From Nitrospirota bacterium (GTDB taxonomy: Bacteria; Nitrospirota; Thermodesulfovibrionia; Thermodesulfovibrionales; SM23-35), in NCBI GenBank assembly GCA_040753955.1, contig JBFMDQ010000004.1:5889-69888 (forward strand): a DNA stretch of 64,000 nucleotides, read 5' to 3'. Below the pieces are notes generated by a model that was given only the letters and a program-made list of their open reading frames with translations, searched no databases and had not been told where the DNA came from. This document shows, in pieces, positions 3,978 to 63,032 of this stretch. Both the position numbers and the translations under genes were made by a program. Positions within the stretch are counted from its first letter, which is position 1, and every line of letters begins with the position of its first letter.

Positions 3978-5777
3978 CTACCCCCTTTTAACCGAATAGA
4001 TGTAAAGTATTGATCCCAGTGGATTTTCTCCCTTCAGTATGTTTTCAGGCTTGATGCCAAACATGGGGCTTACCAGAACCATGACCTTGTCACCAATGAC
4101 TGCATAATCAAGGACAGAACCTTTTATGTCATCTATCATAACGCCTTCCTCCATAGAAAGCCCATCCCACCATAAGTTTTTAATCTGGGACCTTTTATAA
4201 CCAAGTCCCCTTGCCATCTCTAAAAAAGGAATCCTCTTGACTAAAAGAACCTCCCTGTTTCTAAGGAACAACCTATCTTTAATCGCCCATTCACCTCTGT
4301 CAATGAGTATCGAGGGAGATGACTTTTTGAAGGTTGTGAGAAAGCCCCCTGTGTCAGTTTTGCTCCTCCATAACCTTATATCTTTGTCATATAGATTAAG
4401 AAATCCTTTGTCATCGTAAGCAAGGATCAGTCTACCTGTTCGAGAGTCATCGACAAATATGAAATCATATATGTTAATCCCTTCTGGGAGTCCTATTGAG
4501 CTTCCCCTTTTATATTCTCCTTCCCATAATATACTGAATACATCACCCGTAAACCCTTCATCTTTCGAATAATCCTGGGCTATAAGTTCCTTTTCTATTC
4601 TCCGCAGAAAGACATTGTCTTTGTATAAAAGAACAAATTCCGTACCCCTCAGCTCATAGATGTAGGATACAATACCACCACTTCTAACTGAGGAGAGGGT
4701 GACCTCATCCCTCCCGTTTCTGTAAACGTCTTCTGTCTCAGCTTTTCTTCTCATTGAGGTGACGATGATCTCATCCCTTCCGTTTTCGTTAAGGTCTATT
4801 GTTTCAATCCAGAGGTGGTCGTCAAGGTTAGAGCCCTTTATATGGATTCCGCCCAGGGCAGGCTGTAGGTCCGCACCAGGCGTATAAATCCTGACATCCT
4901 TTCCTGTGCTGAGCAGAATCTCCTGGTTTCCATCTCCATCGATGTCACCTACTGTTAAAAGCCTTACGCCGAAGGGCAGGTCTACCTGTAGCCATGCCTC
5001 TTCCTTACGGAGTGTGAAGAACTCCTCACCGAACCTCATCTCCTTTGCATAGGCGGCATCGATCTTTGTATCCATCTCAGCAAACCCGAGGCCGTCAGAG
5101 ACCCAGAAAAGTCTCTGTGTGAGAAGCATGCCTGAGTCGACTATCCTGGATGTCAGGAGGAGTGCAACTTCTGCATTAAGCCTCTTCGCTTCCTTGATAA
5201 CCCCTTGTGGGTCATCCGTCTCAATGCCTGTTTCAATAAGATTAAATCTTCCTGTCTCCTTCAGAACTCTGTAATATGAGTCAGCTATATACCAGTCAAT
5301 ATCTCCTGACTGGCAGAAGAGCATACTGACTTGTGTCTCCGATATCCTGACCTTATCGCCTTCCTTTGCTTCTCCCGTAATTATGATGCCCATTGATGAG
5401 TCAATGCCGGCTTCTTTTATCTCGAGCCTGCCCACAGGAAACTCTAATTTTCCCAATGCCTTTTTTGTGACAGGGTGTATGAATGTAGCTCCTTCTCTCA
5501 GTATTGTAAATCTCATGCCAGTCTTCACAGAGTCTCCTGTCCCTAAATTAACTAAGCCCCTCTGACCCTCGACCTTTATGACTCTGCCTGTCATGGGTTT
5601 AAAATAGGAAACTGTTTCATCTCTCATTCCGTTAAGTAAATTACCATCAGCGTTAGCAGCGACAGGAAAGCATAGGGCATAGAGCACAGGGCATAGAGCT
5701 ATTAGCAATGCATACGTTAAACGGTTAAGGCAATAAAGTCCGTTTCGGTTACCCTTATCCTTTTCTCTACGAGTCAT
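3978..5777 (-). CDS. secreted/lipid-anchored FG-GAP (VCBS-like) repeat protein, function unknown
   Basis: N-terminal hydrophobic signal (LLIALCPVLYALCFPVAANA). Calcium-binding FG-GAP-like motifs DIDGDGNQEILL and DLNENGRDEIIV. Overlaps the GH57 stop by 11 nt, suggesting co-transcription. Confidence 0.5.
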   Translation of the reverse strand: MTRREKDKGNRNGLYCLNRLTYALLIALCPVLYALCFPVAANADGNLLNGMRDETVSYFKPMTGRVIKVEGQRGLVNLGTGDSVKTGMRFTILREGATFIHPVTKKALGKLEFPVGRLEIKEAGIDSSMGIIITGEAKEGDKVRISETQVSMLFCQSGDIDWYIADSYYRVLKETGRFNLIETGIETDDPQGVIKEAKRLNAEVALLLTSRIVDSGMLLTQRLFWVSDGLGFAEMDTKIDAAYAKEMRFGEEFFTLRKEEAWLQVDLPFGVRLLTVGDIDGDGNQEILLSTGKDVRIYTPGADLQPALGGIHIKGSNLDDHLWIETIDLNENGRDEIIVTSMRRKAETEDVYRNGRDEVTLSSVRSGGIVSYIYELRGTEFVLLYKDNVFLRRIEKELIAQDYSKDEGFTGDVFSILWEGEYKRGSSIGLPEGINIYDFIFVDDSRTGRLILAYDDKGFLNLYDKDIRLWRSKTDTGGFLTTFKKSSPSILIDRGEWAIKDRLFLRNREVLLVKRIPFLEMARGLGYKRSQIKNLWWDGLSMEEGVMIDDIKGSVLDYAVIGDKVMVLVSPMFGIKPENILKGENPLGSILYIYSVKRG

Positions 5778-7902
5778 ATATAAATTTTATATTAAACCCT
5801 AACCTTCTCTCATCACCAAAATCAAGCTTTTTCACGAATAGAAATGCTGTGCCCTGATAGATTCTCTCCACACCCTGCTCTGAAAGGGATATGGTCTCTA
5901 CAGGATAGTGCCAGAGATCTATCTCTTCATCAAAATTATAACCAATGCTGAGGTTCAAAGACTCATCCTTCAGATAAAACTCCTTAACATCACCATGGGT
6001 TCCCTTGTTCCTTATAGGGAGATTTTTATCACCCACAAGGATGGAAGAATAGGGAGAGCCGAAAAAGGAGATGTTAAACTCTACAGCAAAAAGTCCGGAA
6101 AATACACCATCAATTTTGTAACCTACCCTCAGTTCCAGAGGCATAGTTAATCTCAATGTCTTCAGAAGTTTTAAAGGATTGCCATTCACGATACCCTTTC
6201 TAAAAAGGTCCACGGTAACAGTATCTCCCTCTTTAATGTAATTCAATGAATAGATACCTTCAATGAAGTCACCCTGTTCCTCATACCTGGAATGCATCAG
6301 ATCGTCAACATTTGTGCCGTCCCTCAGAAAATGGTCAAGGAGTGATGCCCGCCTGTAATTGTCATAGACCATATAATCGATGATGTCTACTTCTTTTACA
6401 ATGAACTGTTCATGAATAGTCCTCGTCTCACCTGTATTAGAAACTGATGCCTGCGCGATCCTTGAATGGTAGGCCTCGGGCCTCCTCGCAATGATGTCAA
6501 GTATATTAATAGCCTTTTCCTTCAGAGATAGTTCTCTAAGGCTACCCCCCTGTTCTGTTAGCGAAAGTGAGATATCCCCCTCGCTAATATAAATATCTTC
6601 AAAACCATCACAATCATAGTCAGACCTTTCTACAGTTAATTTCTCACTAAGTACGCCTTCAGCTATGCCCTCTGCCCTCAGGAGATGCCTGTAAAGGGAT
6701 GACCTCAGGTGAGGCAGATAAAGTCCGCCAAAGATGCCGTGCCAGTAGGCATCATTACATTGGCCCTTCCAGAGCTCATGCAATAACCCCCCTATTTCCC
6801 CCCTTAGTAAGGGGGGAAATGAAGGGGGGTGAACGTTTAACTTTGAACTTTCAACTTTTAACTTTTTTATTGCTCTATGTACTTTTTTACTTATCATTAA
6901 CATGCGTTTCTGGATGTGGTTTGACTCAGGATATTTTGCGAAAAAGGAACGCCATATCCCACCTCTCAGGAGGCTCTTTGCCTTGTCCCCTATCAATCTT
7001 TGCATCTCCCTCAATGCATATTCATAATCGAGTGCCCTTTCAGGAGGAAGCACCCACTCACCCATTTCCCTGTATGATGCTGTGGGAAGATAAACCCTCC
7101 CTACAGGCCGAAACCGAGAATGATAGTCGCTGAATGTTGTCGTCTCTATCCAGTCAGAATTTTCTTCAATGGCATTAAAGAATCTTTCAAGCCAGCCATC
7201 TTCATAGCAGTGCTTGTAGGTTCCAGGCCATACACCAAACTTTTCTCCATCATCTGCCATTGTAAGCAATGGTTTGCCACCCCTCATGTGTATCTCTCCG
7301 GAGTATGAGAGAATTTCATCAATATTCCTGAAAGGTATATAATATCTCAGTTTCTCGCTACCTGGAAATACGCTGAGCTTACAGCCTTCTTCTTCTGTGA
7401 TGTAATAGCCTAAAAGGTCTTCCTCTTCAAGACCTGAAAGCTTGAAATGATAATCATCAACCGGCACATACTCGATGCCAGCTGTCGAGATATATTTTGG
7501 CATCTGTGGTTCCCATACCCTCTCTGCCAGCCACATGCCCTTTGGTGAATAGCCGAGGAGCTTTTTGATATACCCGGAGAGTTCCTTTATCTGAGATACC
7601 CTGTCCTTTTCCGGAATCGCGGAGAGTATTGGCTCGTAAAAACCTCCCGAGAGTATCTCGACCCTTTTCGCCGAGACGAGAGAATGGATCATTTCAAGGG
7701 CTTCGGGATGGCGTTTTTCAAACCATGAGAGGAGATTACCCGAATAATGAAGCACAACCTTTAATGAGGGATGAAGGTTGAGGACTTCGAGAAAAGGCAG
7801 ATAAGCCTTTCTATAAGATTCCTCAAATATATGTTCGAAATTTCCTACAGGTTGATGATTATGGATTGCAAGGATTAAATAGAGCTTTGAATTATTTACC
7901 AG
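5767..7902 (-). CDS. glycoside hydrolase family 57 (alpha-glucan processing enzyme); probable CTG start
   Basis: GH57 hallmarks: HNHQPVGNF (encoded upstream of the ORF-track start), WLAERVWEP, CNDAYWHGIFGGLYLPHLR. The frame is open from the TAA at 7923-7921, and the conserved N-terminus KLYLILAIHNHQP lies at 7890-7756. The only plausible start is CTG 7902-7900, 6 nt after GGAGGA (7914-7909). Confidence 0.8.
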   Translation of the reverse strand: MVNNSKLYLILAIHNHQPVGNFEHIFEESYRKAYLPFLEVLNLHPSLKVVLHYSGNLLSWFEKRHPEALEMIHSLVSAKRVEILSGGFYEPILSAIPEKDRVSQIKELSGYIKKLLGYSPKGMWLAERVWEPQMPKYISTAGIEYVPVDDYHFKLSGLEEEDLLGYYITEEEGCKLSVFPGSEKLRYYIPFRNIDEILSYSGEIHMRGGKPLLTMADDGEKFGVWPGTYKHCYEDGWLERFFNAIEENSDWIETTTFSDYHSRFRPVGRVYLPTASYREMGEWVLPPERALDYEYALREMQRLIGDKAKSLLRGGIWRSFFAKYPESNHIQKRMLMISKKVHRAIKKLKVESSKLNVHPPSFPPLLRGEIGGLLHELWKGQCNDAYWHGIFGGLYLPHLRSSLYRHLLRAEGIAEGVLSEKLTVERSDYDCDGFEDIYISEGDISLSLTEQGGSLRELSLKEKAINILDIIARRPEAYHSRIAQASVSNTGETRTIHEQFIVKEVDIIDYMVYDNYRRASLLDHFLRDGTNVDDLMHSRYEEQGDFIEGIYSLNYIKEGDTVTVDLFRKGIVNGNPLKLLKTLRLTMPLELRVGYKIDGVFSGLFAVEFNISFFGSPYSSILVGDKNLPIRNKGTHGDVKEFYLKDESLNLSIGYNFDEEIDLWHYPVETISLSEQGVERIYQGTAFLFVKKLDFGDERRLGFNIKFIYDS
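6787..6829. repeat. 43-bp nested polyC/polyG palindrome (copy in GH57)
   Basis: Structure C6-TATTT-C6-TTAGTAA-G6-AAATGAA-G6. It is followed at 6830-6880 by AACTTT-type short repeats. Translated on the - strand as KLKVESSKLNVHPPSFPPLLRGEIGG. Confidence 0.85.
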
Positions 7903-9576: not shown

Positions 9577-9683
9577 GTCATTCCCGCTTGTCGGGAATCT
9601 TTCTTCTGTTGTTACGCTTTAAAGAAGGATTTCGGACAAGCCCCGTTAGAAAGTTTATTTCTAACGGGGTAAGCCGAAATGAC
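9577..9683. repeat. GTCATT...AATGAC-bounded palindromic element (rfbC-rfbD spacer)
   Basis: GTCATTCCCGCTTGTCGGGAAT ... CCGAAATGAC. Internal hairpin CCCCGTTAGAAAGTTTATTTCTAACGGGG (9641-9669). Confidence 0.7.
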
Positions 9684-10567: not shown

Positions 10568-10593
10568 GTCATTCCCACGAAAGTGGAAATGAC
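10568..10593. repeat. minimal GTCATT...AATGAC hairpin (rfbD-rfbB spacer)
   Basis: GTCATTCCCACGAAAGTGGAAATGAC, which is the termini only. Confidence 0.7.
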
Positions 10594-14811: not shown

Positions 14812-15614
14812 TTAAAGATTTCCGTAATTATCACAGTCTTTGATGGAGTTTGCGTTTTCTAAAGAATATCAAAAATAGTTATTTTTAACAGTTTTTGCTA
14901 AACTAAAATATTCTTTATTTATGCTATTTAAACTGCATTTAGGTATATATATCGTTGCTGTCCAAGATATTTTGAAATATGGTTCTCTTATTTTGGACAA
15001 GTCTTTATTATATATATTAAACAATGGGCTTTTTATGCCCCTTTAAAAAAATTATTTGCAATGCATGAATTCAAAGACGTTAAAAAAATCCTTGTTATAA
15101 AACTCAGGCACATTGGAGATGTCGTTCTTTCCATACCTGTGTTCAGGGCTTTACGTGAAAATTTTCCAAAAGCGCATATTTCAGCCTTTGTGAATTCAGG
15201 TACAGAGGATGTACTGACAGGGAATACACTTATTGATGAGATAATAGTATTTGATAGAAATATCAAAAAGATGAATCCTTTGCAGAGATATATTAACGAG
15301 CTACTATTCTTGAAATCAGTTAGGAGGAGAAAATTTGATATGACAGTTGACCTCACAAGTGGAGACAGGGCGGCGATAATATCCCTTGTTTCAGGTGCAA
15401 AGTACAGGCTTGCATACGATCCTGGCAAAGACGGGTTTTTGGGAAAGAAATATCTTTATACCCATCTTGCAAAGAAGGATGGTAGTCAGCATATGGTACT
15501 ACAGAATCTTGGCGTTGTCAGGCATTTTGGAATAAACACAGAAAATCTTTCTGTAGATTTTCATATTCCAGAAAAAGACAGGGTCTGGATTAGAAAAGTC
15601 CTTGAAGAAAATAA

Positions 15615-15653
15615 CCCCCCCTTACCCCCCTTTACTAAAGGGGGGACGGGGGG
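15615..15653. repeat. polyC/polyG palindrome (39-bp variant) at the first frame break of the GT9 gene
   Basis: Structure C7-TTA-C6-TTTACTAAA-G6-AC-G6. Frame-1 reading is NPPLPPFTKGGTGG*. Confidence 0.85.
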
Positions 15654-15840
15654 TTAAGGAATACTGTTGTACACGTTCATCCGACATCAAGGTGGCTATT
15701 CAAATGCTGGAAAGATGAGTATATGTCAGAAGTGATAAGCTGGCTTGTTGAACAGGGGGTAAAGGTAACAGTGACATCCTCGCCTGATAAAAGAGAAATG
15801 GAAAAAGCAAAGAGAATTTTGTCTTTAATCTCCGAATTTA

Positions 15841-15883
15841 CCCCCCCTTTGCCCCCCCTTGGCAAGGGGGGGCAAAGGGGGGG
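15841..15883. repeat. 43-bp perfect nested polyC/polyG palindrome at the second frame break of the GT9 gene
   Basis: Structure C7-TTTG-C7-TTGGCAA-G7-CAAA-G7. Reading is TPPLPPLGKGGQRGGN* (frame 0) or ARGGKGGVI (frame 1). Confidence 0.9.
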
Positions 15884-16189
15884 TAATTGACCTGTGTGGT
15901 CAAACTACCATAAAACAACTTGCTGCAATCTCAGAGGCATCTGACCTATTTCTTGGAGTTGATTCTGCTCCGATGCATATAGCGGCTGCTGTAGGGACAT
16001 CTGTTATCGCCCTTTTTGGTCCGACAGGTGAGGCCCAGTGGGGGCCATGGGGAGACAGGCATGTGGTTTTAAACAAGATAGAGTCGTGCACTGATTGCAA
16101 GTTTGACGTATGCGAGAATGCCGGCGTAAGGAAATGTCTTGAAATTATAACGGTGGAGGAAGTTATTACTGCCATTACAAAGATATTGA

Positions 16190-17290
16190 ATGGATAAAAA
16201 CTTTACAAACCTGATAGTTAAAGCTATTATAACTATCTCACAGAAACTAAATATTCCTGCAAGAAATGTAAGAAATCCCACTTCTCCATCTTTTCTCATA
16301 ATTTGTCAAACAAGGGTTGGAGACACTGTATTTTCGTTGCCAGCTATTAGGGCCTTACGGGAAGAGTTTCCGCAAAGCTATATTGGAATATTAACAAACT
16401 ATGTAGGGTTGGAGATATTTAAACATAATCCAGATATTAATGATATTTTTGTCCTTAAAAAGGAAGGAATATGTATTTATCATCTCTTTCCGTCTTAAAA
16501 CTGATGAGAAAGAAGCATATAGATACTGTATTTGTATTCAATGCCGTTGACCGCATTATATGGCCATTATGCTTTTTTACCGGTGCATCGCAGATAGTCG
16601 GCTTGCATGGGCAGAATAAGGGACTTGATTTCCTCCTCACACATATTGTTCATCTGCCAGAAGGGTTACATGCTGCAGAATGGAGACTTAAATTGCTTGA
16701 GCAGATAGGCATTATAAAATCCAGTGCAGCAGCTTCAATTTATCTATCTCAAGATGAGAAAGAACAGATGAGGCAATTTTTATGTAACAATGGCATATCA
16801 GAGAAAAAGCCATTAATTGGGTTTCACCCCGGCGCAGATGGTTTATATAGATGCTGGCCTGCTGAAAAATTCATAGAGGCTGGTAATATATTAACAGAAA
16901 GATTAAGTGCACAAATCGTTATTACAGGGGGGCCTGGCGAAGGAGATTGGCTAATATAATTGCTTCTGCGATAAAAGGCGCTATATCTTTTGCTGGAGAG
17001 CTCTCTTTAAGAGATACTATTGCGCTTATAGAGAGAATGGATTTGTTTATTGTCGGCGACACTGGCCCTATGCATATAGCAGATGCACTAAGAACGCCAA
17101 TGATAACCCTCTTTTGTCCTTCCGAGCCCAAAATAACCGGGCCTTATCACGCAGAGAAGGCAATAATAGTAAAAAAACCATGCCGTGTAATCCGTGTAAA
17201 TTAACTAATTGTAATAATAATTTTTGTATGGAGCAAATAACTGTAGAAGAAGTTGTTAATCACGCCAGAAGATTACTGTGTAAAGAGTAG
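16190..17290 (+). pseudogene. decayed GT9 heptosyltransferase-family paralog (three frameshifts)
   Basis: Four collinear fragments in frames 2,1,0,2 (16190-16498, 16471-16959, 16947-17204, 17171-17290). They align end to end with the intact neighbour 17295-18422, e.g. DRIIWPLCFFTGASQIVGLHGQNKGLDF vs DRIIWPISFLTGAAEIIGIEGQNKGLDF and CMEQITVEEV vs CMEQIKVEEV. Confidence 0.8.
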
Positions 17291-29237: not shown

Positions 29238-29306
29238 GTCATTCCGGGCTTGACCCGGAATCCAGTTCCTTTCATTTTCCTGGATTCCCGCTTTCGCGGG
29301 AATGAC
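29238..29306. repeat. GTCATT...AATGAC-bounded double-hairpin element (ribE-ribBA spacer)
   Basis: GTCATTCCGGGCTTGACCCGGAATCCAG..CTGGATTCCCGCTTTCGCGGGAATGAC. Flanked by CCGTAT/ATACGG and by two GGCAAGACC hairpins and AATTTTAAATTT repeats (29165-29406). Confidence 0.75.
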
Positions 29307-39464: not shown

Positions 39465-39518
39465 AATATAGACTGCATCTATACGATGAAGTTGTCAAGA
39501 AACAAAAAACCATATATT

Positions 39519-39685
39519 CGAATAACCAATGACCAAATTCCAATAACCAAATAGAATTATCAATGCAAAATTATCAGTGAACATTTAATCTGATAATTGC
39601 TTATTGATAATTTTGACTTGAATTTTTGGTGATTGGTTATTGAAATTTATTTGATGCTTGGAATTTGGTTATTTGGGGTTTGGTT
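39519..39685. repeat. ~165-bp imperfect palindrome of the CCAATAACC family (upstream of the 841-aa gene)
   Basis: Left arm CGAATAACCAATGACCAAATTCCAATAACCAAATAG. Right arm GGTGATTGGTTATTGAAATTTATTTGATGCTTGGAATTTGGTTATTTGG. Nested inner inverted repeats AATTATCAA/TTGATAATT. Confidence 0.7.
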
Positions 39686-39693: not shown

Positions 39694-42219
39694 ATGATAG
39701 AAAGCATTTTGCAAAAATTCACCACAAAGTATAATTTTAAAACCATGTATAGAGACCCAAGGATATTCTTAGTAATATTCCTGTGCTCCTTTTCGAGCCT
39801 TGCCTATGAGATAGCCCTCACGAGGATATTTTCTGTCTCCCTCTGGTACCACTTTGCTTTTATGATAATAAGTATTGCCATGCTTGGCATCGGTGCAAGC
39901 GGGACATTACTATCCCTCTATCCTAAACTTAGAAGCCTATCCAATATCGGTATTTATAGCCTGTTGCTCGGTACCGGAATATCTCTGAGTTATCTTTTTT
40001 CAAATCAGATACCCTTTGATCCAGTGAGGCTTTCTTGGTCAAGGATGCAGTTGCTTTATATCGGTCTCTACTACGTAACACTCTCGATGCCATTTTTCTT
40101 CACAGGATTGATCATCGCCACAGCATTCTCCTGTATAAGCGAGAAATCAGGTATGATTTATGGTGCAGACCTTCTCGGTGCAGGTATAGGCTCAATAGGA
40201 ATCCTGTATCTCATGACAATCACAGGGCCTGATAAGGCTGTTTTTATCCTCTCTTCAATCGTACTCATGGCATCATTCATTATCGGCAAGAAAAGGCTGA
40301 AGGCAATCTCTCTGGTATTAATCTTACTTAACCTTTCTGCTCTGTTCTTTCAACCTGTATTTATTAACCTCAGGATGTCTCCATACAAGGGGCTTCAGGT
40401 AGCCCTGAGATATCCTGAAGCAGAACATTTAAAGACCTATTTCAGTCCCTTCTCAAGGATAGACACGTTTAAGAGCCCTGTAGTGCGTTTTGCCCCTGGC
40501 CTGAGCCTCAGGTATCTTGATAAACTCCCTGAACAGATAGGGTTTTCAATAGACGGAAGCGAGATAAATGCTATAACAGCTTTCCATGGGGGGATCCCCC
40601 AAAGGGGAACGGAGTCCCCCTTTGGCACTTTTCTTAGATACCTGCCATCTGCACTCCCCTATGAAGTAAGCGTAGGGGAGGATGTATTAATCCTTGACCC
40701 AAAAGGAGGTCTTCAAGTCATCGTTGCAGCTCATTACAGCTCAAAAAATCTCTATAAGGTCGAGTCCAATCCTCTCTTGATAAAAATCATCAGGGATGAA
40801 TTCAAAGCCTTTTCTGGCAATATCTACAGGGACGATACATGGTCAGGGCTCGGAAGGTCGTGGCTCAAGTCAGGTTACAAGAAATTCGATATTATCGACA
40901 TCTCATTGATGGGTTCAGCACCCTCTGGTTCTTTTGGAATATCAGAGGACTACAGGTCTACTGTTGAGGCATTCATGGAATACATAGGCCATCTAAAACC
41001 GGAGGGGCTTTTGAGCATAAACCTCTTTATATTACCGCCTCCACGAATAGAATTGAGACTCATAAATACCATTATTACAGCTATGGAGGAGCTCGGGATA
41101 AAAGATATGGAAAAACAGGTTGTAGCTATTCGAAGTTGGGGAAGTATGTGTATTCTCATAAAAAGATCACCCTTTACCCTTAATGAGATAGAGGCTATCA
41201 AGGAGTTTTCAAAAGACAGACGGTTCGATTTAATACACTATCCGGGCATCAAAGAAGAGGAGGCAAACGTCTATATTCGAATGCCCTCAAATGAATATTT
41301 CACTGCCTTTAAAAATATCCTGAATCCCGAAACACGTACAGGGTTTATACATGATTATATCTTTGATATAAGCCCTGTCCGTGATGACAGCCCATTTTTT
41401 CATTATTATCTCAAACTCAAAAACATCAAGGAGACCTATAAAATTATGGGGGAAAAATGGCAGTATTTTATAGAAGAAGGATACATCCTTCCAGTGATCT
41501 TCATGCAGGTAATGTTTTTAAGCCTGATTCTTATAATTCTCCCGGCCTTATCAAGAAAATCATATGTCATTGCGAGGAGGTCGTTTCGACCGACGAAGCA
41601 ATCCCAACAGCAAATACTAAGAGGCAAAGACGAGATTGCTTCGCCCCGTATTGAATACGGGGCTCGCAATGACATGGGAAAAAGGTTTTTACCTTATTTC
41701 GCCTTCCTAGGTCTCGGATTCATGTTTGTAGAGGTGTCTCTGATCCAGAAGATCATCCTTCCCCTTGAAAACCCCTCCTATGCAGTCGCTACCGTCCTCA
41801 CATCAATCCTCATAAGTTCAGGTATCGGGAGTCTATTGAGTCACAGGGTTTCAGGTCTCAGAAGCCCCTCTGTAACAATCGCTCTCTCCTTTCTTATCAT
41901 CCTTTACAGCGTTCTTCTCCCATCTATCCCAGATATAATTTCTCCTTATTCGATACCGGTAAAGATTATCTCTGTATTCTTCATCCTCATGCCGCTCGGC
42001 CTTCTCATGGGTATCCCCTTCCCCGCGGGTCTGAAAATCCTCGGTGAGAAGAATGAATCATTAATCCCCTGGGCATGGGCGATAAACGGTTGCCTATCAG
42101 TCCTCGCACCTATCCTGACTATTATGTTAGCAATAGTCATCGGGTTCAAAATGGTCCTCTGGCTGGGGGCATTAACATATGTGATGGCGTTTGTATTTAT
42201 AAAGAAATTTGCCTCATGA
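39694..42219 (+). CDS. polytopic membrane protein with central spermidine-synthase-like domain; carries two intragenic repeat insertions
   Basis: The N-terminal TM block LAYEIALTRIFSVSLWYHFAFMIISIAMLGIGASG is typical of membrane-fused spermidine-synthase-like proteins. Soluble central domain, C-terminal TM block. Repeats at 40588-40625 and 41566-41673 are read through in frame. Confidence 0.6.
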   Translation: MIESILQKFTTKYNFKTMYRDPRIFLVIFLCSFSSLAYEIALTRIFSVSLWYHFAFMIISIAMLGIGASGTLLSLYPKLRSLSNIGIYSLLLGTGISLSYLFSNQIPFDPVRLSWSRMQLLYIGLYYVTLSMPFFFTGLIIATAFSCISEKSGMIYGADLLGAGIGSIGILYLMTITGPDKAVFILSSIVLMASFIIGKKRLKAISLVLILLNLSALFFQPVFINLRMSPYKGLQVALRYPEAEHLKTYFSPFSRIDTFKSPVVRFAPGLSLRYLDKLPEQIGFSIDGSEINAITAFHGGIPQRGTESPFGTFLRYLPSALPYEVSVGEDVLILDPKGGLQVIVAAHYSSKNLYKVESNPLLIKIIRDEFKAFSGNIYRDDTWSGLGRSWLKSGYKKFDIIDISLMGSAPSGSFGISEDYRSTVEAFMEYIGHLKPEGLLSINLFILPPPRIELRLINTIITAMEELGIKDMEKQVVAIRSWGSMCILIKRSPFTLNEIEAIKEFSKDRRFDLIHYPGIKEEEANVYIRMPSNEYFTAFKNILNPETRTGFIHDYIFDISPVRDDSPFFHYYLKLKNIKETYKIMGEKWQYFIEEGYILPVIFMQVMFLSLILIILPALSRKSYVIARRSFRPTKQSQQQILRGKDEIASPRIEYGARNDMGKRFLPYFAFLGLGFMFVEVSLIQKIILPLENPSYAVATVLTSILISSGIGSLLSHRVSGLRSPSVTIALSFLIILYSVLLPSIPDIISPYSIPVKIISVFFILMPLGLLMGIPFPAGLKILGEKNESLIPWAWAINGCLSVLAPILTIMLAIVIGFKMVLWLGALTYVMAFVFIKKFAS
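40588..40625. repeat. G/C-tract palindromic hairpin inside the 841-aa membrane protein gene
   Basis: GGGGGGATCCCCC overlaps the hairpin CCAAAGGGG-AACGGAGTC-CCCCTTTGG. Translated in frame as HGGIPQRGTESPFGT. Confidence 0.7.
41566..41673. repeat. 108-bp MITE-like element with perfect 11-bp terminal inverted repeats, inserted in frame (36 codons)
   Basis: Termini GTCATTGCGAG ... CTCGCAATGAC. Internal inverted pair GAAGCAATC/GATTGCTTC and hairpin CCCCGTATTGAATACGGGG. Flanked by AT on both sides. Translated as VIARRSFRPTKQSQQQILRGKDEIASPRIEYGARND. Confidence 0.8.
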
Positions 42220-46244: not shown

Positions 46245-47048
46245 ATGGTCAGGATAGCAGTTGCAGGGGCAGCAGGAAGAATGGGTAGCAGAATCACTGC
46301 CCTTTCGAGGGAATATCCTGAATTGAAACTCACAGGTGCCTTCGAAAAAAAGGGGCATGATGCGGTGGGAAAGGACATTGGACTTGTAATCGGAATAGGT
46401 GAGATAGGGATAAAACTTCAAGACAGCCTTGAAGATATTATTGACAATGTAGATGTAATTATCGACTTTACTACTCCGAGCTCGACAAAAGAAAACGTAA
46501 GGCTTTCGGCTAAGAAAGGTAGGGCAATGGTGATAGGAACAACCGGATTCTCAAGGGATGAAATGAAGGAGATAGAGGCTTCGATAAAAAATATACCATG
46601 CGTTATGTCATCCAATATGAGCGCAGGCGTAAATCTCCTGCTGAAGGTGTTGCAGAATACAGCAAAGGTTTTGGGTGACGAATACGATATAGAAATTATC
46701 GAGGCACACCACAGGATGAAAAAGGATGCACCCAGTGGCACGGCAATGAAGATGGCACAGTTAATTGCAGATGCTATAAACAGAAATCTTGATGAGGTTG
46801 CTGTATACACAAGAAAAGGGCTTATTGGCGAGAGAACCAGGAAAGAAATTGGCATACAGACTATACGTGCAGGTGACATTGTAGGAGAACATACCGTTAT
46901 ATTTGGTGGCCTCGGTGAAAGGATCGAGATTACCCATAAGGCATCAAGCAGGGACACATTCGCAAGGGGTGCATTAAAGGCAGCTATGTGGGTATATGGT
47001 AAACCAGCAGGTCTTTATGATATGCAGGATGTGCTTGGGCTGAAGTAA
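46245..47048 (+). CDS. dapB: 4-hydroxy-tetrahydrodipicolinate reductase
   Basis: GAAGRMG N-terminus and EAHHRMKKDAPSGTA catalytic motif. Confidence 0.95.
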   Translation: MVRIAVAGAAGRMGSRITALSREYPELKLTGAFEKKGHDAVGKDIGLVIGIGEIGIKLQDSLEDIIDNVDVIIDFTTPSSTKENVRLSAKKGRAMVIGTTGFSRDEMKEIEASIKNIPCVMSSNMSAGVNLLLKVLQNTAKVLGDEYDIEIIEAHHRMKKDAPSGTAMKMAQLIADAINRNLDEVAVYTRKGLIGERTRKEIGIQTIRAGDIVGEHTVIFGGLGERIEITHKASSRDTFARGALKAAMWVYGKPAGLYDMQDVLGLK

Positions 47049-47050
47049 AC

Positions 47051-47082
47051 CCCGTTAGAAGACCTTTCGCCCTTCTAACGGG
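47051..47082. repeat. CCCGTTAGAA...TTCTAACGGG hairpin just after the dapB stop
   Basis: 11-bp stem CCCGTTAGAAG/CTTCTAACGGG. Same stem family as 9641-9669. No U-tract, so it is a repeat hairpin rather than a clear terminator. Confidence 0.6.
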
Positions 47083-47137
47083 ATTGCTCACACGAGGCAT
47101 TGACCCCGTGTTCGCTTGAAAAGGAACTTATTTTCAT

Positions 47138-53227: not shown

Positions 53228-54688
53228 TTAAACCATGCCCTTTCTCTTCTTAATAGCATAATCGTAGAGTTCAATGTATCTTTCTGCTGATCTCTTCCAC
53301 GAAAAGTCCGCCTTCATAGCATTTACGATTATCCTCTGCATTTTATCCCTATCAGTATAAACGCAGAGTGCCCTTTTTACAGCATCCAGCATTGCAGATG
53401 GGGTATAATCAGAAAAAAGGAATCCCGTTCCCTTTAAGGTCAGTGGGTAGAAGTCCTGGATAGTATCAGCAAGACCACCTGTCTTCCTCCCAATGGGAAT
53501 ACTGCCATACCTCATCGAAATAAGCTGGCCAAGTCCGCATGGCTCATACCTCGAAGGGGCGAGAAAGAAGTCTGAACCTGCATAAATCCTGTGGGCAAGT
53601 GGCTCTTCAAATCCAATTGTAACAGAGACCCTACCCTTATATCTGTTGGCAACCTCTGAAAAACCAATATGGAATGCCTCCTCCCCTTTGCCCAGGAGAA
53701 TAAGGTTTACACCTAAAGATAAAAGTTCCTCAATAGATTGCAGAACAAGGTCTAAACCTTTCTGAGCAGAGAGCCGGGTGATCATACCTATAAGGGGCCT
53801 TTCGAGTTTCTCAAGAGATACCTCCTTTACAAGCTGCCTCTTGCATTCTCTCCTACCCTGAAGATTTTTGATATTAAAATTTTTGGGTAAAAACCTATCC
53901 TTAAATGGATCCCACTCCTTATAATCTATACCATTTATAACACCATAGAGGTCTTTTTCTCTTCTCTGCAAAACGCCTTCGAGGCCAAAACCAGATTCCT
54001 TTTTTAGAATCTCTTTTGCATAGGTGTAACTAACCGTTGTCAGTACATCTGTAGATATGAGACCTGCCTTCAGAAAGTTTATCCTTCCATAAAACTCTAT
54101 ACCTTCAGGGTTAAAAAGCTCCCATCCAAGGCCAGTAAGGGACATCTCAGAGGCTGGAAAAAGCCCCTGATAACCAAGGTTATGTATTGTGAGTACAGTA
54201 GCTGTTTCATCGAAAAATTGATCTAATCTATATATTGTCTTGAGATATAAAGGTATAAGGCCTGTCTGCCAGTCATTACAGTGAATTACATCTGGTTTGA
54301 GGTTAAGTGCCTTGCATGTCTCTATTACTCCCCTTGAGAAGAATATAAATCGAGATGCATTATCAATATAATCTCCTTGAGGAGTACCATATAATTCCTC
54401 TCTGTCAAAAAATTCATCACAATCTATAAAGTAGGTTAAGGATTCGTCGCTGAATATCCCCCCCTCTATTTCTCTATCTCCTATAGGTACTTTTATCTTT
54501 AAACCCGTATTTTGTAGGGGCGTATAGCTATACGCCCCTACCTTCTTCATCTTTCTGTAAAGAGGCAGGATAATATATGCCTCCTTATTCATATCTCTAT
54601 ACTTCTTTATAAGCGCGCCTGCAACATCTGCAAGGCCCCCGGTCTTTGCATAAGGTACTGCCTCAGGAGTTGCAATCAGTATTCTCAT
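53228..54688 (-). CDS. glgA: glycogen synthase (ADP-glucose type)
   Basis: PYAKTGGLADV N-terminal motif, PSRYEPCGL, 486 aa. Confidence 0.9.
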   Translation of the reverse strand: MRILIATPEAVPYAKTGGLADVAGALIKKYRDMNKEAYIILPLYRKMKKVGAYSYTPLQNTGLKIKVPIGDREIEGGIFSDESLTYFIDCDEFFDREELYGTPQGDYIDNASRFIFFSRGVIETCKALNLKPDVIHCNDWQTGLIPLYLKTIYRLDQFFDETATVLTIHNLGYQGLFPASEMSLTGLGWELFNPEGIEFYGRINFLKAGLISTDVLTTVSYTYAKEILKKESGFGLEGVLQRREKDLYGVINGIDYKEWDPFKDRFLPKNFNIKNLQGRRECKRQLVKEVSLEKLERPLIGMITRLSAQKGLDLVLQSIEELLSLGVNLILLGKGEEAFHIGFSEVANRYKGRVSVTIGFEEPLAHRIYAGSDFFLAPSRYEPCGLGQLISMRYGSIPIGRKTGGLADTIQDFYPLTLKGTGFLFSDYTPSAMLDAVKRALCVYTDRDKMQRIIVNAMKADFSWKRSAERYIELYDYAIKKRKGMV

Positions 54689-61718: not shown

Positions 61719-63032
61719 TTGCTCCAGGTGGTAGAAGATATCAGTCCGACAAAGAAGCGTCTCAGGGTAGAGATTCCATCAGACGTGATCGAAAAGGAGA
61801 TAAAGGATTCTCTCGAAAGGTTAAGACAGAAAACTAATATACCGGGGTTCAGGCCTGGCAGGGCTCCAGTTAATCTAATAGAAAAACGCTTCGGCAAAGG
61901 GGTTGAAGCAGAGGTACTTGATAAGGTAATCTCTGAATATTACAGCAAGGCATTAAAAGAAGCTGAACTCATACCTGTAACAATGCCTGTATTTGATGAG
62001 AAGCTTGGCTTTAAAAGAAACAATCCACTTAATCTTTCATTCACGGTTGAAGTGATGCCGAAGATTGAGAATCTTAATTACGAAAATATAAAGATAAAGG
62101 ATATTCCTATAGTTGTCGATGAGGCTGAGGTAGATGATTACATTAAAAAACTCCAGGATAAAAAGGCTATATATGAAGTTGCTGAAAAAGATGTAGATAT
62201 GGATGACCTTGTCACATTTGAGTATGTAGACTGTAAAATGATCGGGGAAGAAAGCCCCCCATCCATAAAGGAACAGATATTGAAGATGGGTAAAGAGATA
62301 TTCCCCCTGGACATAATGGAAAGAGTGATGGGGAAGAAAAAGGGCGAGGTAGTGGAGTTCACTACCACATTCAATGAAGGTTGTAAGTCAAAAGAACTTG
62401 CGGGAAAGACGGTTGATATGAAAGTTATGATAAAGGAGGTAAAGCAGAAAATCCTACCGGCAATTGATGATGAATTTGCAAAGGATCTTGGTTTTGAAAA
62501 TATCTTGGAATTGAGAGAAAGGATAAAAGAAGATATATATAAAGCTAAAAAAGAACAGGCTATGAAAATCCAGAAGGCAGAGATTCTCCATAAGATTATT
62601 GAGCCCCATGATTTTGAGGTACCAGAAACCCTGCTCAGAAATGAGCTGGAATCCCTTATGATGCAAGAAAACACCCCCCTCACTCCCCCCTTACCAAGGG
62701 GGGAATTTAAGGGGGGTGATGCTGGCAGCCCAGAACAGGAAAAAGAGGATGTCGAAAACTTACAGGCTAAACTGAAACATAAGGCATTGAGGAACGTACA
62801 GGCATCGATAATTATAGATGCCATAGGCCAAAAAGAGGAAATCGCAGTAACAGAAGATGAAGTGAAGGATCGAATCCATTTTATAGCGGAAAGGCTCTCG
62901 GCCAAACCAGAGGTTGTCATGAAATTCTACATAGCGAGAGATGGCTCTCTGGAAGGCCTGAGGCATTCGATCTATGAGGATAAAGTCCTGGATATGCTTT
63001 TGTCCAAAGCCATTTCTGAGAAAGGAGAGTAG
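61719..63032 (+). CDS. tig: trigger factor (carries a 43-bp palindromic insertion)
   Basis: N-terminal ribosome-binding GFRPGRAP motif, PPIase-like middle, tig-clpP-clpX synteny. TTG start. Confidence 0.9.
   Translation: MLQVVEDISPTKKRLRVEIPSDVIEKEIKDSLERLRQKTNIPGFRPGRAPVNLIEKRFGKGVEAEVLDKVISEYYSKALKEAELIPVTMPVFDEKLGFKRNNPLNLSFTVEVMPKIENLNYENIKIKDIPIVVDEAEVDDYIKKLQDKKAIYEVAEKDVDMDDLVTFEYVDCKMIGEESPPSIKEQILKMGKEIFPLDIMERVMGKKKGEVVEFTTTFNEGCKSKELAGKTVDMKVMIKEVKQKILPAIDDEFAKDLGFENILELRERIKEDIYKAKKEQAMKIQKAEILHKIIEPHDFEVPETLLRNELESLMMQENTPLTPPLPRGEFKGGDAGSPEQEKEDVENLQAKLKHKALRNVQASIIIDAIGQKEEIAVTEDEVKDRIHFIAERLSAKPEVVMKFYIARDGSLEGLRHSIYEDKVLDMLLSKAISEKGE
62674..62716. repeat. 43-bp nested polyC/polyG palindrome (copy in trigger factor)
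   Basis: Structure C6-TCACT-C6-TTACCAA-G6-AATTTAA-G6. Translated in frame as TPLTPPLPRGEFKGG. Confidence 0.9.

What the first reader, a model, noticed from the sequence alone, without database searches (positions are those of the whole stretch)
41566..41673. 108-bp element with perfect 11-bp terminal inverted repeats inserted as exactly 36 codons in a membrane protein gene
GTCATTGCGAG...CTCGCAATGAC bound a 108-bp segment with internal inverted repeats (GAAGCAATC/GATTGCTTC, CCCCGTATTGAATACGGGG). It is flanked by AT on both sides.

The host ORF reads through it: ..SYVIARRSFRPTKQSQQQILRGKDEIASPRIEYGARNDMGKRF... The insert sits between the soluble domain and the C-terminal TM block.

The same termini family (GTCATT[C/G]C...G[A/C]AATGAC) bounds intergenic elements at 9577-9683, 10568-10593 and 29238-29306. 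This therefore looks like a MITE-like family member that landed in a gene without breaking it. The length is a multiple of 3 and it contains no stop in the host frame, which suggests selection or a recent event.
Basis: seen in the sequence. Interest (0 to 1): 0.55.

Follow-up and report, generated by a model that had tools for sequence, protein, structure and literature searches.

The report
Translated hairpin-repeat pair inside membrane gene
A 108-base palindromic piece of repeat DNA, from a family found across many bacterial phyla and linked to small single-strand-DNA nucleases, sits in frame in a loop of a membrane enzyme and is read as 36 extra amino acids. In related bacteria the same loop carries other palindromic repeats.

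Summary
Window 41566-41673 is a 108-bp nested palindrome read through by an 841-aa ORF.

It is not a classical MITE. It is an inverted pair of two ~40-nt hairpin units: YGTCATTGCGAG, a variable inner hairpin, then CGAAGCAATCY. Head (GTC) and tail (AATCY) match the Neisseria NTS / Ssn-related motif (SRM) repeats described in 2025, but the stem is ATTGC/GCAAT.

Such pairs occur in at least 120 genome loci from more than 10 phyla and in 111 viral contigs. They have no target-site duplication. They flank the only two single-domain GIY-YIG (Ssn-like) genes found in the fetched DNA.

The insert forms residues 625-660, a low-confidence loop between two transmembrane helices of a protein with a spermidine-synthase-like domain.

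It is not recent. Orthologs only ~75% identical carry the same pair at the same junction; others keep one half or a remnant.

About 60% of 120 orthologs carry one of three palindromic sequence classes in this loop. Orthologs 91-96% identical can differ in class, so the loop behaves as a swappable cassette.

Trigger factor and a GH57 enzyme in the window also carry in-frame palindromes, which resembles Rickettsia RPEs.

No nuclease gene lies in the window, so the mobilising mechanism is inferred.

The parts
41566..41673 (.). The 108-bp element: an inverted pair (doublet) of two hairpin-repeat units plus a spacer. It is translated as residues 625-660 of the host protein.
41565..41605 (+). Left unit: T-GTCATTGCGAG, variable part GAG-GGTCGTTTCGACC-GA, then CGAAGCAATC-CC. 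The outer stem is ATTGC/GCAAT, with GTC 5' of it and C 3' of it.
   Evidence: Unit formula derived from 126 family copies; ssDNA fold; the same variant occurs in ortholog L125
41579..41591 (+). Inner hairpin of the left unit, GGTCG-TTT-CGACC. This is the variable module; orthologs L002, L123 and L124 have CGAAGC here instead.
41604..41633. 30-nt spacer between the two units. It has no family motif and is homologous among orthologs (by my count from the alignment, 5 of 27 aligned bases differ from L002 and 3 of 27 from L123).
41634..41674 (-). Right unit, read on the minus strand: T-GTCATTGCGAG-CCCCGTATTCAATACGGGG-CGAAGCAATC.
   Evidence: The same unit variant also occurs as a single unit at an unrelated intergenic locus (L246/L247).
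41643..41663 (.). Inner hairpin of the right unit, GCCCCGTATT-G-AATACGGGGC. It is conserved with 0-1 changes in orthologs L001, L002 and L124.
39694..42219 (+). Host gene: 841-aa polytopic membrane protein with a central domain of spermidine-synthase (aminopropyltransferase) fold. The insert lies in the loop between helices 599-629 and 660-691.
   Evidence: no Pfam hit; AF2 model pTM 0.80 with pLDDT 46-51 over the insert; Foldseek match to SpeE 1uir, E 4e-6
29238..29306 (.). Sister-type doublet with ATTCC/GGAAT stems. Its minus-strand unit, TGTCATTCCCGCGAAAGCGGGAATCCAG, fits the published NTS/SRM pattern. It lies upstream of the Pfam-matched part of a ribBA ORF.
9577..9683 (.). Sister-type doublet: GTCATTCCCGCTTGTCGGGAATC ... 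a unit with a CCCCGTTAGAAA/TTTCTAACGGGG inner hairpin ... GAAATGAC. The longest stop-free stretch across it is 58 aa.
10568..10593 (.). 26-nt palindrome GTCATTCCCACGAAAGTGGAAATGAC. It has a head of the same family at each end and is a short or degenerate form.

Best explanation
The 108-bp segment is an inverted pair of two units of a pan-bacterial hairpin-repeat family. Its arrangement resembles a REPIN.

Each unit is YGTC + ATTGC + variable inner hairpin + GCAAT + CY. This matches the layout of the Neisseria NTS / Ssn-related motif (SRM) repeats (CGTC-ATTCCCGCG...CGCGGGAAT-CYRG), but with an ATTGC/GCAAT stem.

Shown:
- The pair lies in the DNA for a short basic loop between two transmembrane helices of a membrane protein with a spermidine-synthase-like domain.
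- It sits in the one phase (GTC = Val ... GAC = Asp) that is stop-free.
- The ORF therefore stays intact and encodes 36 extra residues, which are modelled with low confidence.
- The insert is not a recent event in this genome. The same allele is present in orthologs about 75% identical.
- The loop is a cassette-like hypervariable site across the protein family.

Inferred:
- Units of this family are bound as single-stranded hairpins and nicked just upstream by a small single-domain GIY-YIG nuclease (Ssn), as shown experimentally for NTS in Neisseria.
- The units spread or are exchanged through ssDNA intermediates and short-patch recombination, not by cut-and-paste transposition.
- The intragenic copy persists because the loop tolerates it.
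- The copy stays close to the family consensus through recombination with other copies or alleles, or through constraint at the DNA level.
For: Anatomy and family
- Both halves follow the same formula, and each folds on its own as an ATTGC/GCAAT stem enclosing an inner hairpin.
These come from Alpha- and Gammaproteobacteria, Bacteroidota, Patescibacteria, Chloroflexota, Planctomycetota, Clostridia, Desulfobacterota and others. There are 111 more stretches in viral contigs.
- In about 220 units the closing motif is GCAATC[CT] in 208, mostly followed by AG as in NTS AATCYRG. The base before GTC is C or T in 120 of 126 copies.

Match to published work
- PMC11893778 reports that in NTS the C just after the palindrome matters most for Ssn binding, and the 3 nt before the palindrome matter most for cleavage. 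Both are conserved here.
- In the window, generic units number 6 against 0.68 expected. One unit (29283-29306) fits the published SRM pattern literally.

Link to the GIY-YIG nuclease
- Only two distinct single-domain GIY-YIG genes were found in the ~2 Mb of fetched DNA (L248 repeats the L213 locus). One is in Lacinutrix (L101; PF01541, E 6.6e-18). The other is on IMG/VR contig L213.
- L213 is flanked on both sides by ATTGC-type doublets. L101 has a doublet 8 nt upstream of its ATG and a degenerate unit overlapping its 3' end.
- Six of 120 Flavobacterial homologs end in a unit-like tail (three in ...TKQATDCFVPRN..).

Not a cut-and-paste MITE
- No target-site duplication: 1 of 126 copies.
- Single units occur alone at the same gene site: L125 has only the left unit, L001 only the right.

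Age of the insert
- Window, L002, L123 and L124 share the junction, the spacer and (except L123) the inner hairpin, while their genes are 75% identical at the nucleotide level. L126 keeps only GTC|CAATCCCAAAAGCAA.

The loop tolerates the insert
- pLDDT is 46-51 over residues 630-659, between helices modelled with high confidence.
- The basal loop in orthologs without repeats is 15-19 aa.

Cassette behaviour
- About 73 of 120 orthologs carry class A, B or C peptides in this loop.
- Pairs 91-96% identical differ in class.
- L130 (class C) is 95% identical at the nucleotide level to L002/L123/L124 (class A). The divergence is confined to the loop plus the first 4 codons after it.

Ongoing change
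- L127 and L128 are 98.6% identical and differ by an in-frame 54 nt. This is a new unit nested in the variable part of the old left unit.
Against: - No GIY-YIG/Ssn gene is in the 64-kb window, nor in the 22-kb loci from two related genomes, L001 and L126. The profile used was built from Flavobacterial sequences only. The rest of the genome could not be read.
- The two units do not match the published SRM search pattern literally, because GC falls where the pattern wants YY.
- The link between ATTGC-type units and the nuclease rests on two loci plus six protein tails, all outside Nitrospirota.
- How Ssn-type repeats multiply is unknown even in Neisseria. The paper shows cleavage and an effect on transformation, not transposition.
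- The window holds no second ATTGC-type copy. The sister genome has one (L001 7187-7218).
- Translation of the 36 residues is inferred from the intact ORF, not observed.
- The case for recombination rests on one well-resolved clade.
Confidence: 0.7

Rival explanations
1. It is a classical MITE: a non-autonomous element with terminal inverted repeats, moved as one piece by a DDE transposase, which duplicated an AT target on insertion.
For: Perfect 11-nt terminal inverted repeats, AT on both sides, small size and related elements in the window.
Against: - AT/AT is palindromic and extends the inverted repeat. Family-wide, direct flanking repeats occur in 1 of 126 copies against 98 of 126 with complementary flanks.
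- Orthologs differ in flanks: TGT|...|AAG in L002.
- Each half occurs alone.
- The termini are identical across more than 10 phyla, which fits a conserved protein-recognition hairpin better than the ends of one IS family.
- Clustering ORFs within 2 kb of the doublets at 231 loci found no recurrent transposase.
Confidence: 0.05
2. It is a REP doublet (REPIN) spread by a RAYT-type Y1 (HUH) transposase, not by a GIY-YIG nuclease.
For: The architecture is the same: two short hairpin units in inverted orientation with a conserved 5' head, no target-site duplication, and mostly outside genes.
Against: - The head is YGTCATT, as in NTS, not the GTAG-type REP head (REP head sequence from my own knowledge).
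- The only genes found tightly flanked by these units are single-domain GIY-YIG genes.
- PMC11893778 reports that 71% of ssn homologs have SRMs nearby.
- No recurrent gene other than prophage structural genes was seen near doublets.
- RAYT genes were not searched for with a dedicated profile.
Confidence: 0.1
3. The segment is kept because it does something in this gene. It might be a useful loop extension. It might be a DNA or mRNA hairpin, for example a nuclease or recombination control site, or a translational pause that aids membrane insertion.
For: - Between deep lineages only 0-2 of 20-25 identical-residue codons differ within the element, against about 40% in the rest of the gene.
- The element ranks in the top 5-20% of 90-nt windows of the gene for nucleotide identity.
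- The structure is very stable.
Against: - Most orthologs lack it or carry an unrelated palindrome.
- Halves and inner hairpins are deleted without loss of the ORF (L001, L123, L125, L126).
- Among close relatives the element changes faster than the gene: 83-88% against 95-96% nucleotide identity.
- The left head has decayed in L123 and L124 with no compensating change on the right side.
Confidence: 0.12
4. It is a chance palindrome or an assembly artefact.
For: None beyond the fact that the window comes from a metagenome-assembled genome.
Against: - The same element occurs in independent assemblies from JGI, ENA, NCBI and Logan.
- Fold z-score is -8.
- The family is found in hundreds of loci.
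Confidence: 0.01

Closest known systems
NTS / Ssn-related motifs (SRM) and the Ssn family of single-domain GIY-YIG ssDNA nucleases (Chenal et al., Nat Commun 2025, PMC11893778). NTS includes the Neisseria dRS3 repeat.
   Same: - Oriented hairpin unit of about 30-45 nt with a YGTC head, an ATTxx...xxAAT palindrome and a C(YRG) tail.
- Many copies, spread over many phyla.
- Units flank small GIY-YIG genes on both sides.
- Sister units in this window fit the NTS consensus almost exactly.
   Different: - The stem is ATTGC/GCAAT with an inner variable hairpin, instead of ATTCCCGCG/CGCGGGAAT.
- The published SRM pattern does not match it.
- It is organised as an inverted doublet.
- It is located in frame inside a conserved gene; a term search of the paper's main text found 'in-frame', 'intragenic' and 'intergenic' absent.
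- No ssn gene was seen in the available Nitrospirota DNA.
Rickettsia palindromic elements (RPE; Ogata et al. 2000 and 2002, as summarised in PMC10969869)
   Same: - Palindromic repeats inserted in frame in unrelated housekeeping genes and translated as extra peptide segments that the fold tolerates.
- Several families co-exist in one genome.
- Here, three genes in one 64-kb window carry such inserts.
   Different: - The host is Nitrospirota, not Rickettsia.
- The elements are 40-110 bp, against about 150 bp for RPEs.
- The translated insert has no match in NCBIfam or Pfam.
- The same loop carries different palindrome classes in different orthologs and is swapped between near-identical genes; I did not find this in the RPE passages I read.
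- Whether RPEs themselves carry YGTCAT heads was not tested. The Ssn paper lists Rickettsia among SRM-rich genera.
REP / REPIN elements with RAYT transposases
   Same: Inverted doublets of short hairpin units with a conserved 5' head, no target-site duplication and a single-strand hairpin as the likely substrate. The Ssn paper itself draws this parallel.
   Different: The head sequence differs, and the associated gene seen here is a GIY-YIG nuclease rather than a Y1 transposase.
Bacterial MITEs such as Correia elements
   Same: Small size, terminal inverted repeats, and occasional in-frame fusion with host ORFs.
   Different: No target-site duplication, halves that exist independently, and termini conserved across phyla.

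Membership tests
NTS/SRM (Ssn-related hairpin repeats) | Oriented hairpin unit with a conserved 3 nt (GTC) just 5' of the palindrome and a C just 3' of it. These are the positions critical for Ssn cleavage and binding. | tested here: met
   Both units read GTC-ATTGC...GCAAT-C. Family-wide the closing motif is GCAATC[CT] in 208 of about 220 units. The criteria come from PMC11893778.
NTS/SRM (Ssn-related hairpin repeats) | Literal match to the published search pattern HGTCWYN(0-2)YYVSBRHN(0-5)WNVSBRGN(0-2)RNCYNB. | tested here: not met
   The only hit in the window is the minus-strand unit at 29283-29306. The two units of this element fail because GC falls where the pattern wants YY. The pattern was hand-built from 29 genomes.
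NTS/SRM (Ssn-related hairpin repeats) | Units flank single-domain GIY-YIG (cd10448-like) genes. | tested here: met
   Met for the ATTGC type in other genomes: L101 (Lacinutrix) and L213/L248, plus unit-like tails on 6 of 120 homologs. The sample is small.
NTS/SRM (Ssn-related hairpin repeats) | An ssn gene is present in the same genome. | not testable with these tools
   None was found in the 64-kb window or in the loci from related genomes, L001 and L126. Two look-ups aimed beyond the window ends returned nothing.
NTS/SRM (Ssn-related hairpin repeats) | The unit is bound and cut by Ssn as ssDNA only, on one strand only. | not testable with these tools
   This is a biochemical assay.
NTS/SRM (Ssn-related hairpin repeats) | Many copies per genome, above chance. 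| tested here: inconclusive
   Generic GTCATT-NN...N'N'-AATC units number 6 in the window against 0.68 expected. ATTGC-type units are only the two halves of this element. One more lies in the sister genome (L001 7187-7218).
Classical MITE | Target-site duplication flanking the terminal inverted repeats. | tested here: not met
   1 of 126 family copies has even a 1-nt direct repeat. Ortholog flanks differ.
Classical MITE | The element moves as one unit bounded by its terminal inverted repeats. | tested here: not met
   Left-only, right-only and single-unit copies exist. A single new unit is nested inside an old one.
Rickettsia palindromic elements (RPE) | A palindromic repeat inserted in frame in protein-coding genes and absent from orthologs. 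| tested here: met
   Also true of class-B palindromes in trigger factor and the GH57 enzyme.
Rickettsia palindromic elements (RPE) | Sequence homology to a named RPE family. | tested here: not met
   The translated insert has no NCBIfam or Pfam match at E up to 10. I did not confirm which RPE models those libraries hold, and DNA-level comparison with RPE consensus sequences was not possible.
REP/REPIN-RAYT | A RAYT (Y1 transposase) gene flanked by the units. | not tested
   No Y1 profile was run. Unbiased clustering of ORFs near doublets showed no recurrent transposase.

The most novel reading that the evidence does not exclude
In these Nitrospirota, hairpin repeats of several unrelated classes act as exchangeable coding cassettes. 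The loop between two transmembrane helices of this enzyme, and loops of other housekeeping proteins such as trigger factor, are repeatedly rewritten. This happens by repeat insertion, by nested insertion into the variable part of existing units, and by short-patch recombination between lineages. The Ssn-type ssDNA nuclease system would drive or gate these exchanges. That would make SRM-type repeats a general, cross-phylum generator of protein-loop diversity, an RPE-like process with an identifiable enzyme. It would also mean Ssn/SRM is a mobile or recombination-promoting system, not only a brake on transformation.
Probability: 0.3. Interest if true: 0.75.

Novelty: new variant of a known kind. 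Interest (0 to 1): 0.55.

Why it matters
The Ssn/SRM system was described only in 2025, and how its repeats spread is still open.

This locus gives natural 'before and after' states at one defined site, inside a conserved gene where selection keeps every state in frame:
- a full pair, a left half only, a right half only and a remnant;
- a nested new unit;
- a wholesale swap to another palindrome class.

Such series are what is needed to infer an insertion or recombination mechanism.

It also shows that translated palindromic repeats are not a Rickettsia peculiarity. They occur in free-living Nitrospirota, with three genes affected in one 64-kb window.

Many 'hypothetical' peptide motifs in metagenomic proteins (VIARSEATKQS, ...ARND, PPLxKGG) come from such repeats. 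This matters for gene calling, for ortholog alignment and for structure prediction.

Tried and rejected
- Rfam scan of the whole window found only a tRNA; no known RNA family covers the element.
- Pfam and NCBIfam gave no hit for the host protein or for the 46-aa loop peptide.
- Search for a nuclease gene used phmmer with the L101 GIY-YIG protein and a profile of 120 homologs. The targets were all six-frame ORFs of the window and of all fetched loci. The only hits were L101 and L213. A regex for the GIY-YIG motif gave the same result.
- Two look-ups meant to reach the ~13.7 kb of the contig outside the window failed. One was my own coordinate error on the minus-strand ORF.
- I tested whether family doublets are often read through by long ORFs: 19 of 126 have at least 60 stop-free codons on both sides. 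Most are in high-GC genomes where long open frames arise by chance, and most lengths are not multiples of 3. I do not count this as evidence.
- Clustering ORFs within 2 kb of the doublets at 231 loci, to find a recurrent partner gene, gave only prophage/GTA-like structural genes. This reflects how the viral set was selected. No transposase emerged.
- A scan of viral contigs for Ssn relatives gave only one real locus, the same as L213.
- A neighbour-joining tree of the C-terminal 400 residues interleaves the loop classes. It is too poorly resolved at 70-77% identity to count gains, so I rely instead on pairwise identities of close pairs.
- The Ogata 2002 RPE paper is not in the library, and the Ssn paper's supplements are not held. 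I therefore could not check whether the ATTGC-type variant or RPE consensus sequences are listed there.


Full report

Yes. Window 41566-41673 begins with GTCATTGCGAG and ends with its exact complement CTCGCAATGAC. With the flanking AT the inverted repeat is 13 nt. Inside lie two further perfect inverted repeats:
- CGAAGCAATC/GATTGCTTCG, separated by 30 nt;
- GCCCCGTATT/AATACGGGGC, separated by 1 nt.

The segment folds into a three-way junction far more stable than shuffles. As RNA it gives -55 kcal/mol, z = -8.1, with 0 of 200 shuffles as good. As ssDNA on either strand it gives about -33 kcal/mol, z about -8.1.

The ORF 39694..42219 (+), 841 aa, reads through it in frame as residues 625-660, VIARRSFRPTKQSQQQILRGKDEIASPRIEYGARND. 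The other two sense frames contain stops. Rfam finds nothing there.

**2. Anatomy: two units, not one element with terminal repeats**

The two halves are inverted copies of one unit. Each unit is GTCATTGCGAG, a variable inner hairpin, then CGAAGCAATC.
- The left inner hairpin is GGTCG-TTT-CGACC.
- The right one, read on the minus strand, is CCCCGTATT-C-AATACGGGG.
- A 30-nt spacer separates the units.

Folded alone as ssDNA, each unit forms an ATTGC/GCAAT outer stem around its inner hairpin. GTC stays unpaired on the 5' side and C follows on the 3' side.

**3. The family**

These came from:
- Alpha- and Gammaproteobacteria (many Bradyrhizobium);
- Bacteroidota (Mucilaginibacter, Pedobacter, Flavobacterium);
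- Patescibacteria, Chloroflexota, Planctomycetota, Clostridia, Desulfobacterota, Ignavibacteriota, Zixibacteria, Margulisbacteria and Rickettsiales.

The same pattern occurs in 111 stretches of IMG/VR viral contigs.

The 126 copies in the genome loci are 82-112 bp long, with no preference for multiples of three (43/42/41). They share one unit formula:
- Y-GTCATTGCGAG;
- a variable part, most often CGAAGCGAA (9 nt) or GAGCGAAGCGACGAA (15 nt), but up to 43 nt;
- GCAATC[CT], mostly followed by AG.

There is no target-site duplication. The flanking bases are direct repeats in 1 of 126 copies and complementary in 98 of 126. The base before the head is C in 86 copies and T in 34.

**4. What it corresponds to in the literature**

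A full-text search for the terminal sequences led to Chenal et al. 2025 (PMC11893778). That paper defines:
- the Neisseria Transformation Sequence, CGTCATTCCCGCGMAVGCGGGAATCYRG, which contains the dRS3 repeat;
- more broadly, 'Ssn-related motifs' (SRM).

SRMs are hairpin repeats found in many phyla. They flank genes for small single-domain GIY-YIG proteins (Ssn, cd10448).

Meningococcal SsnA binds NTS only as single-stranded DNA and cuts a few nucleotides upstream. The C just after the palindrome matters most for binding, and the three bases before it matter most for cleavage.

The units here have the same head (YGTC), the same first three palindrome bases (ATT...AAT) and the same tail (C, then YRG/AG). 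They differ in the stem (ATTGC/GCAAT) and in carrying an inner variable hairpin.

The minus-strand unit at 29283-29306, TGTCATTCCCGCGAAAGCGGGAATCCAG, matches the published SRM pattern literally. It is the only such match in the window, against 0.17 expected. Generic units (GTCATT-NN...N'N'-AATC) number 6 in the window against 0.68 expected. The two units of the element under study do not match the published pattern, because GC falls where it requires YY.

**5. Link to the nuclease**

I searched all six-frame ORFs of the window and of all fetched loci (about 2 Mb), first with one GIY-YIG protein and then with a profile of 120 homologs. Only two distinct genes were found; L248 is the same locus as L213:
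- In Lacinutrix venerupis (L101), the 95-aa GIY-YIG ORF (PF01541, E 6.6e-18) has an ATTGC-type doublet ending 8 nt before its ATG. A degenerate unit overlaps its last codons.
- On IMG/VR contig L213, the gene is flanked on both sides by ATTGC-type doublets.

Six of 120 Flavobacterial homologs end in a unit-like tail, three of them in ...TKQATDCFVPRN...

So the SRM-ssn-SRM architecture holds for this variant in other genomes. No such gene lies in the 64-kb window or in the 22-kb loci from two related genomes, L001 and L126. The rest of the genome could not be reached. Clustering ORFs near the doublets at 231 loci showed no recurrent transposase.

**6. The host protein and the site**

The 841-aa protein has no Pfam match. 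A model built with 58 homologs has pTM 0.80. It shows an N-terminal helical membrane block, a central alpha/beta domain and a C-terminal helical block. Foldseek matches the central domain to spermidine synthases and aminopropyltransferases (1uir, E 4e-6, probability 1.0).

The insert (residues 625-660) lies between helices 599-629 and 660-691. Its pLDDT is 46-51, while the next block reaches 89. It is therefore a loop extension between the first two helices of the C-terminal membrane block. The basic flanks (SRKS......GKRF) suggest a cytoplasmic loop by the positive-inside rule; this is an inference.

**7. History at this site**

The 120 best homologs are mostly unnamed metagenomic sequences; nearly all that carry a name are Nitrospirota or Thermodesulfovibrionales MAGs. 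They are 732-886 aa long and differ mainly in this loop. Loops without repeat signatures are about 15-19 aa.

| Locus | Gene identity to window | State of the loop |
|---|---|---|
| L002, L124 | about 75% nt | full pair at the same junction (AAATCATGT\|GTCATT...AATGAC\|AAGGG), homologous spacer, same right inner hairpin |
| L123 | about 75% nt | full pair at the same junction and homologous spacer; right inner hairpin lost |
| L001 | 93% nt | right half only |
| L125 | 77% nt | left unit only, with the same GGTCG...CGACC inner hairpin |
| L126 | 77% nt | remnant GTC\|CAATCCCAAAAGCAA |

The insertion is therefore not recent, and the states differ by in-frame deletions.

Between the deep lineages:
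- The gene is 75% identical at the nucleotide level.
- Third codon positions are 55% identical.
- 39-42% of identical-residue codons use different codons.
- Within the element, nucleotide identity is 81-89%.
- Within the element, only 0-2 of 20-25 identical-residue codons differ.
- The element ranks in the top 5-20% of 90-nt windows of the gene.

Among close relatives the picture reverses. For L002/L123/L124 the gene is 95-96% identical, but the element is only 83-88% identical. The left head has decayed (GCGAG to GCCGG or GACGG) with no compensating change on the right.

The element is therefore locally unstable, yet held near a common form over long distances.

**8. Ongoing activity and cassette behaviour**

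L127 and L128 are 98.6% identical and differ by an in-frame 54 nt. L128 carries a new single unit (TGTCATTGCGAGGGACGAGGTCCCGAAGCAATCTCGG) with its own short flanking stem. It is nested in the variable part of the old left unit and has no duplication. A comparable nested insert is seen in L245.

A metagenome scan for the right unit with its specific inner hairpin found four orthologs of this gene. It also found the same unit, alone, at an unrelated intergenic locus (L246/L247). This composite unit is therefore itself multi-copy.

By regex classification, which is approximate, the 120 orthologs fall into these classes:

| Class | Peptide signature | Orthologs |
|---|---|---|
| A | VIAR..TKQS..EIAS..RND | about 27 |
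| B | PPFxSPLxKGG | about 29 |
| C | KVKVEVE..NLNLSL | about 27 |

- The DNA of a class-B loop (L129) is CCCCCCTTTAATTCCCCCCTTACCAAGGGGGGATACAGGGGGG. This matches the window's own palindromes at 6787, 15615, 15841 and 62674.
- The class-C loop (L130) is also an inverted repeat. I found no second copy, so its status as a repeat family is not shown.

Loop class differs between very close orthologs:

| Pair | Classes | Protein identity |
|---|---|---|
| P0027 / P0040 | A / C | 96% |
| P0003 / P0034 | A / C | 91% |
| P0021 / P0042 | A / B | 91% |
| P0009 / P0019 | A / B-remnant | 92% |

At the DNA level, L130 is 95% identical to L002/L123/L124. The difference is confined to the loop plus the first four codons after it (CTG TTG CCC TAC against CTC CTT CCT TAT). 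This looks like a short imported patch rather than a clean excision and insertion.

The most economical reading is that whole-loop alleles built from palindromic repeats are exchanged between related lineages by short-patch recombination, on top of insertion and deletion of units. This part is an inference from limited data.

**9. How it most likely works**

Shown:
- It is an inverted pair of SRM/NTS-like hairpin units of a cross-phylum family.
- It has no target-site duplication.
- It lies in frame, in the only fully open sense phase, in a tolerant inter-helix loop.
- It is old or shared; it was not newly inserted.
- The loop is hypervariable and cassette-like.

Inferred:
- The units are recognised as ssDNA hairpins by an Ssn-type GIY-YIG nuclease that nicks just 5' of GTC.
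- Copies arise or are exchanged through ssDNA intermediates (replication or transformation) and recombination.
- The 36 residues are translated and tolerated.
- Similarity across deep lineages is kept by recombination with other copies or alleles, or by DNA-level constraint.

The rivals are less well supported, for the reasons given in their entries. They are a classical MITE, a REPIN/RAYT system, a domesticated functional hairpin or loop, and an artefact.

**10. Comparison and novelty**

- As a repeat, it works like an SRM/NTS element. It meets the structural criteria and the gene-flanking criterion in other genomes. It fails the literal published pattern. The same-genome nuclease and the biochemistry cannot be tested here.
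- As a phenomenon, it works like Rickettsia palindromic elements, which are in-frame, translated palindromes in housekeeping genes (PMC10969869). It has no detectable homology to them.
- A term search of the Ssn paper's main text found 'in-frame', 'intragenic' and 'intergenic' absent.
- I rate it a new variant of a known kind. The points of interest are the ATTGC-stem doublet form of the Ssn-type repeats, their in-frame fixation in a conserved gene, and a loop that serves as a swappable landing pad for three palindrome classes.

**11. Wider context in the window**

In-frame palindromes are not unique to this gene.
- A class-B palindrome lies inside the GH57 4-alpha-glucanotransferase ORF (6787-6827; peptide HPPSFPPLLRGEIGGLL).
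- Another lies inside trigger factor (62674-62716). It adds 16 residues relative to E. coli trigger factor.
- Two more sit at the break between two adjacent same-strand ORFs, the second of which matches the C-terminal part of glycosyltransferase family 9.

This supports an RPE-like regime in this Nitrospirota genome.

Noticed in passing
window 62674-62716, inside ORF 61719..63032 (+): A class-B palindrome (CCCCCCTCACTCCCCCCTTACCAAGGGGGGAATTTAAGGGGGG) lies in frame inside trigger factor (PF05697/PF05698). It encodes ...TPLTPPLPRGEFKGGD.... The protein has 16 extra residues here relative to E. coli trigger factor 1w26.
   Followed up: partly
window 6787-6827, inside ORF 5767..7755 (-): A class-B palindrome lies in frame inside a GH57 4-alpha-glucanotransferase (PF03065, PF09094, PF09095), with peptide HPPSFPPLLRGEIGGLL. 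The middle-domain Pfam match spans 98 residues for 78 profile positions, which fits an insertion.
   Followed up: partly
window 15617-15653 and 15838-15886: Two class-B palindromes sit at the break between ORFs 15061..15657 and 15859..16197. The second ORF matches the C-terminal part of glycosyltransferase family 9 (PF01075); the first has no Pfam match. The gene may be split or frameshifted by repeat insertion.
   Followed up: no
window 39512-39673 and 27802-27891: Another family of AT-rich inverted repeats (AATGACCAAATTCCAATAACCAAA ... TTTGGTTATTGAAATT) fills the intergenic region just upstream of the host gene and recurs at 27802-27891. In the sister genome L001 the corresponding intergenic region instead holds an SRM-like doublet (9750-9807). 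Intergenic repeats therefore also turn over between genomes whose host genes are 93% identical.
   Followed up: no
window 9641-9669 and 47048-47085; L001 519-574: A CCCCGTTAGAAA...TTTCTAACGGGG hairpin module occurs as the inner hairpin of SRM-like units and also apparently alone (47048-47085). Its CCCCGT...ACGGGG stem resembles the inner hairpin of the studied element's right unit. Inner hairpins may be a separate nested repeat class.
   Followed up: no
window 54514-54541: Perfect 28-nt palindrome GTAGGGGCGTATAG/CTATACGCCCCTAC with no spacer. Its identity was not examined.
   Followed up: no
window 19586-19596: A third exact GTCATTGCGAG has no partner. By my reading of the frame it lies in coding sequence (...DGIVIASIPNIRHY...); no ORF call or domain search was run there. 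It is most simply native coding sequence rather than a repeat copy, although an exact 11-mer is unexpected by chance (about 0.03 per window).
   Followed up: partly
L127 2319-2408 versus L128 1936-2079: Two host-gene orthologs 98.6% identical differ by an in-frame 54 nt. This is a new single ATTGC-type unit with its own flanking stem, nested in the variable part of the older left unit. There is no target-site duplication and 12 nt are replaced. It is a natural filled/empty pair for working out the mechanism.
   Followed up: yes
L130 loop versus L002/L123/L124: Genes 95% identical carry completely different loop cassettes (class C against class A). The divergent tract extends only 4 codons into the following helix, which suggests short-patch recombination.
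   Followed up: yes
L123 1917, L125 1220, L130 1499 (inside host-gene orthologs): Class-B palindromes also occur at one or more other positions inside orthologs of the same host gene, upstream of the loop studied here. This may account for some of the length variation among orthologs.
   Followed up: no
L131-L241 (IMG/VR contigs): ATTGC-type doublets occur in 111 stretches of viral or prophage contigs. Many lie next to HK97-like or GTA-like structural genes of high-GC Alphaproteobacteria. Phages or gene-transfer agents could carry the family between hosts.
   Followed up: partly
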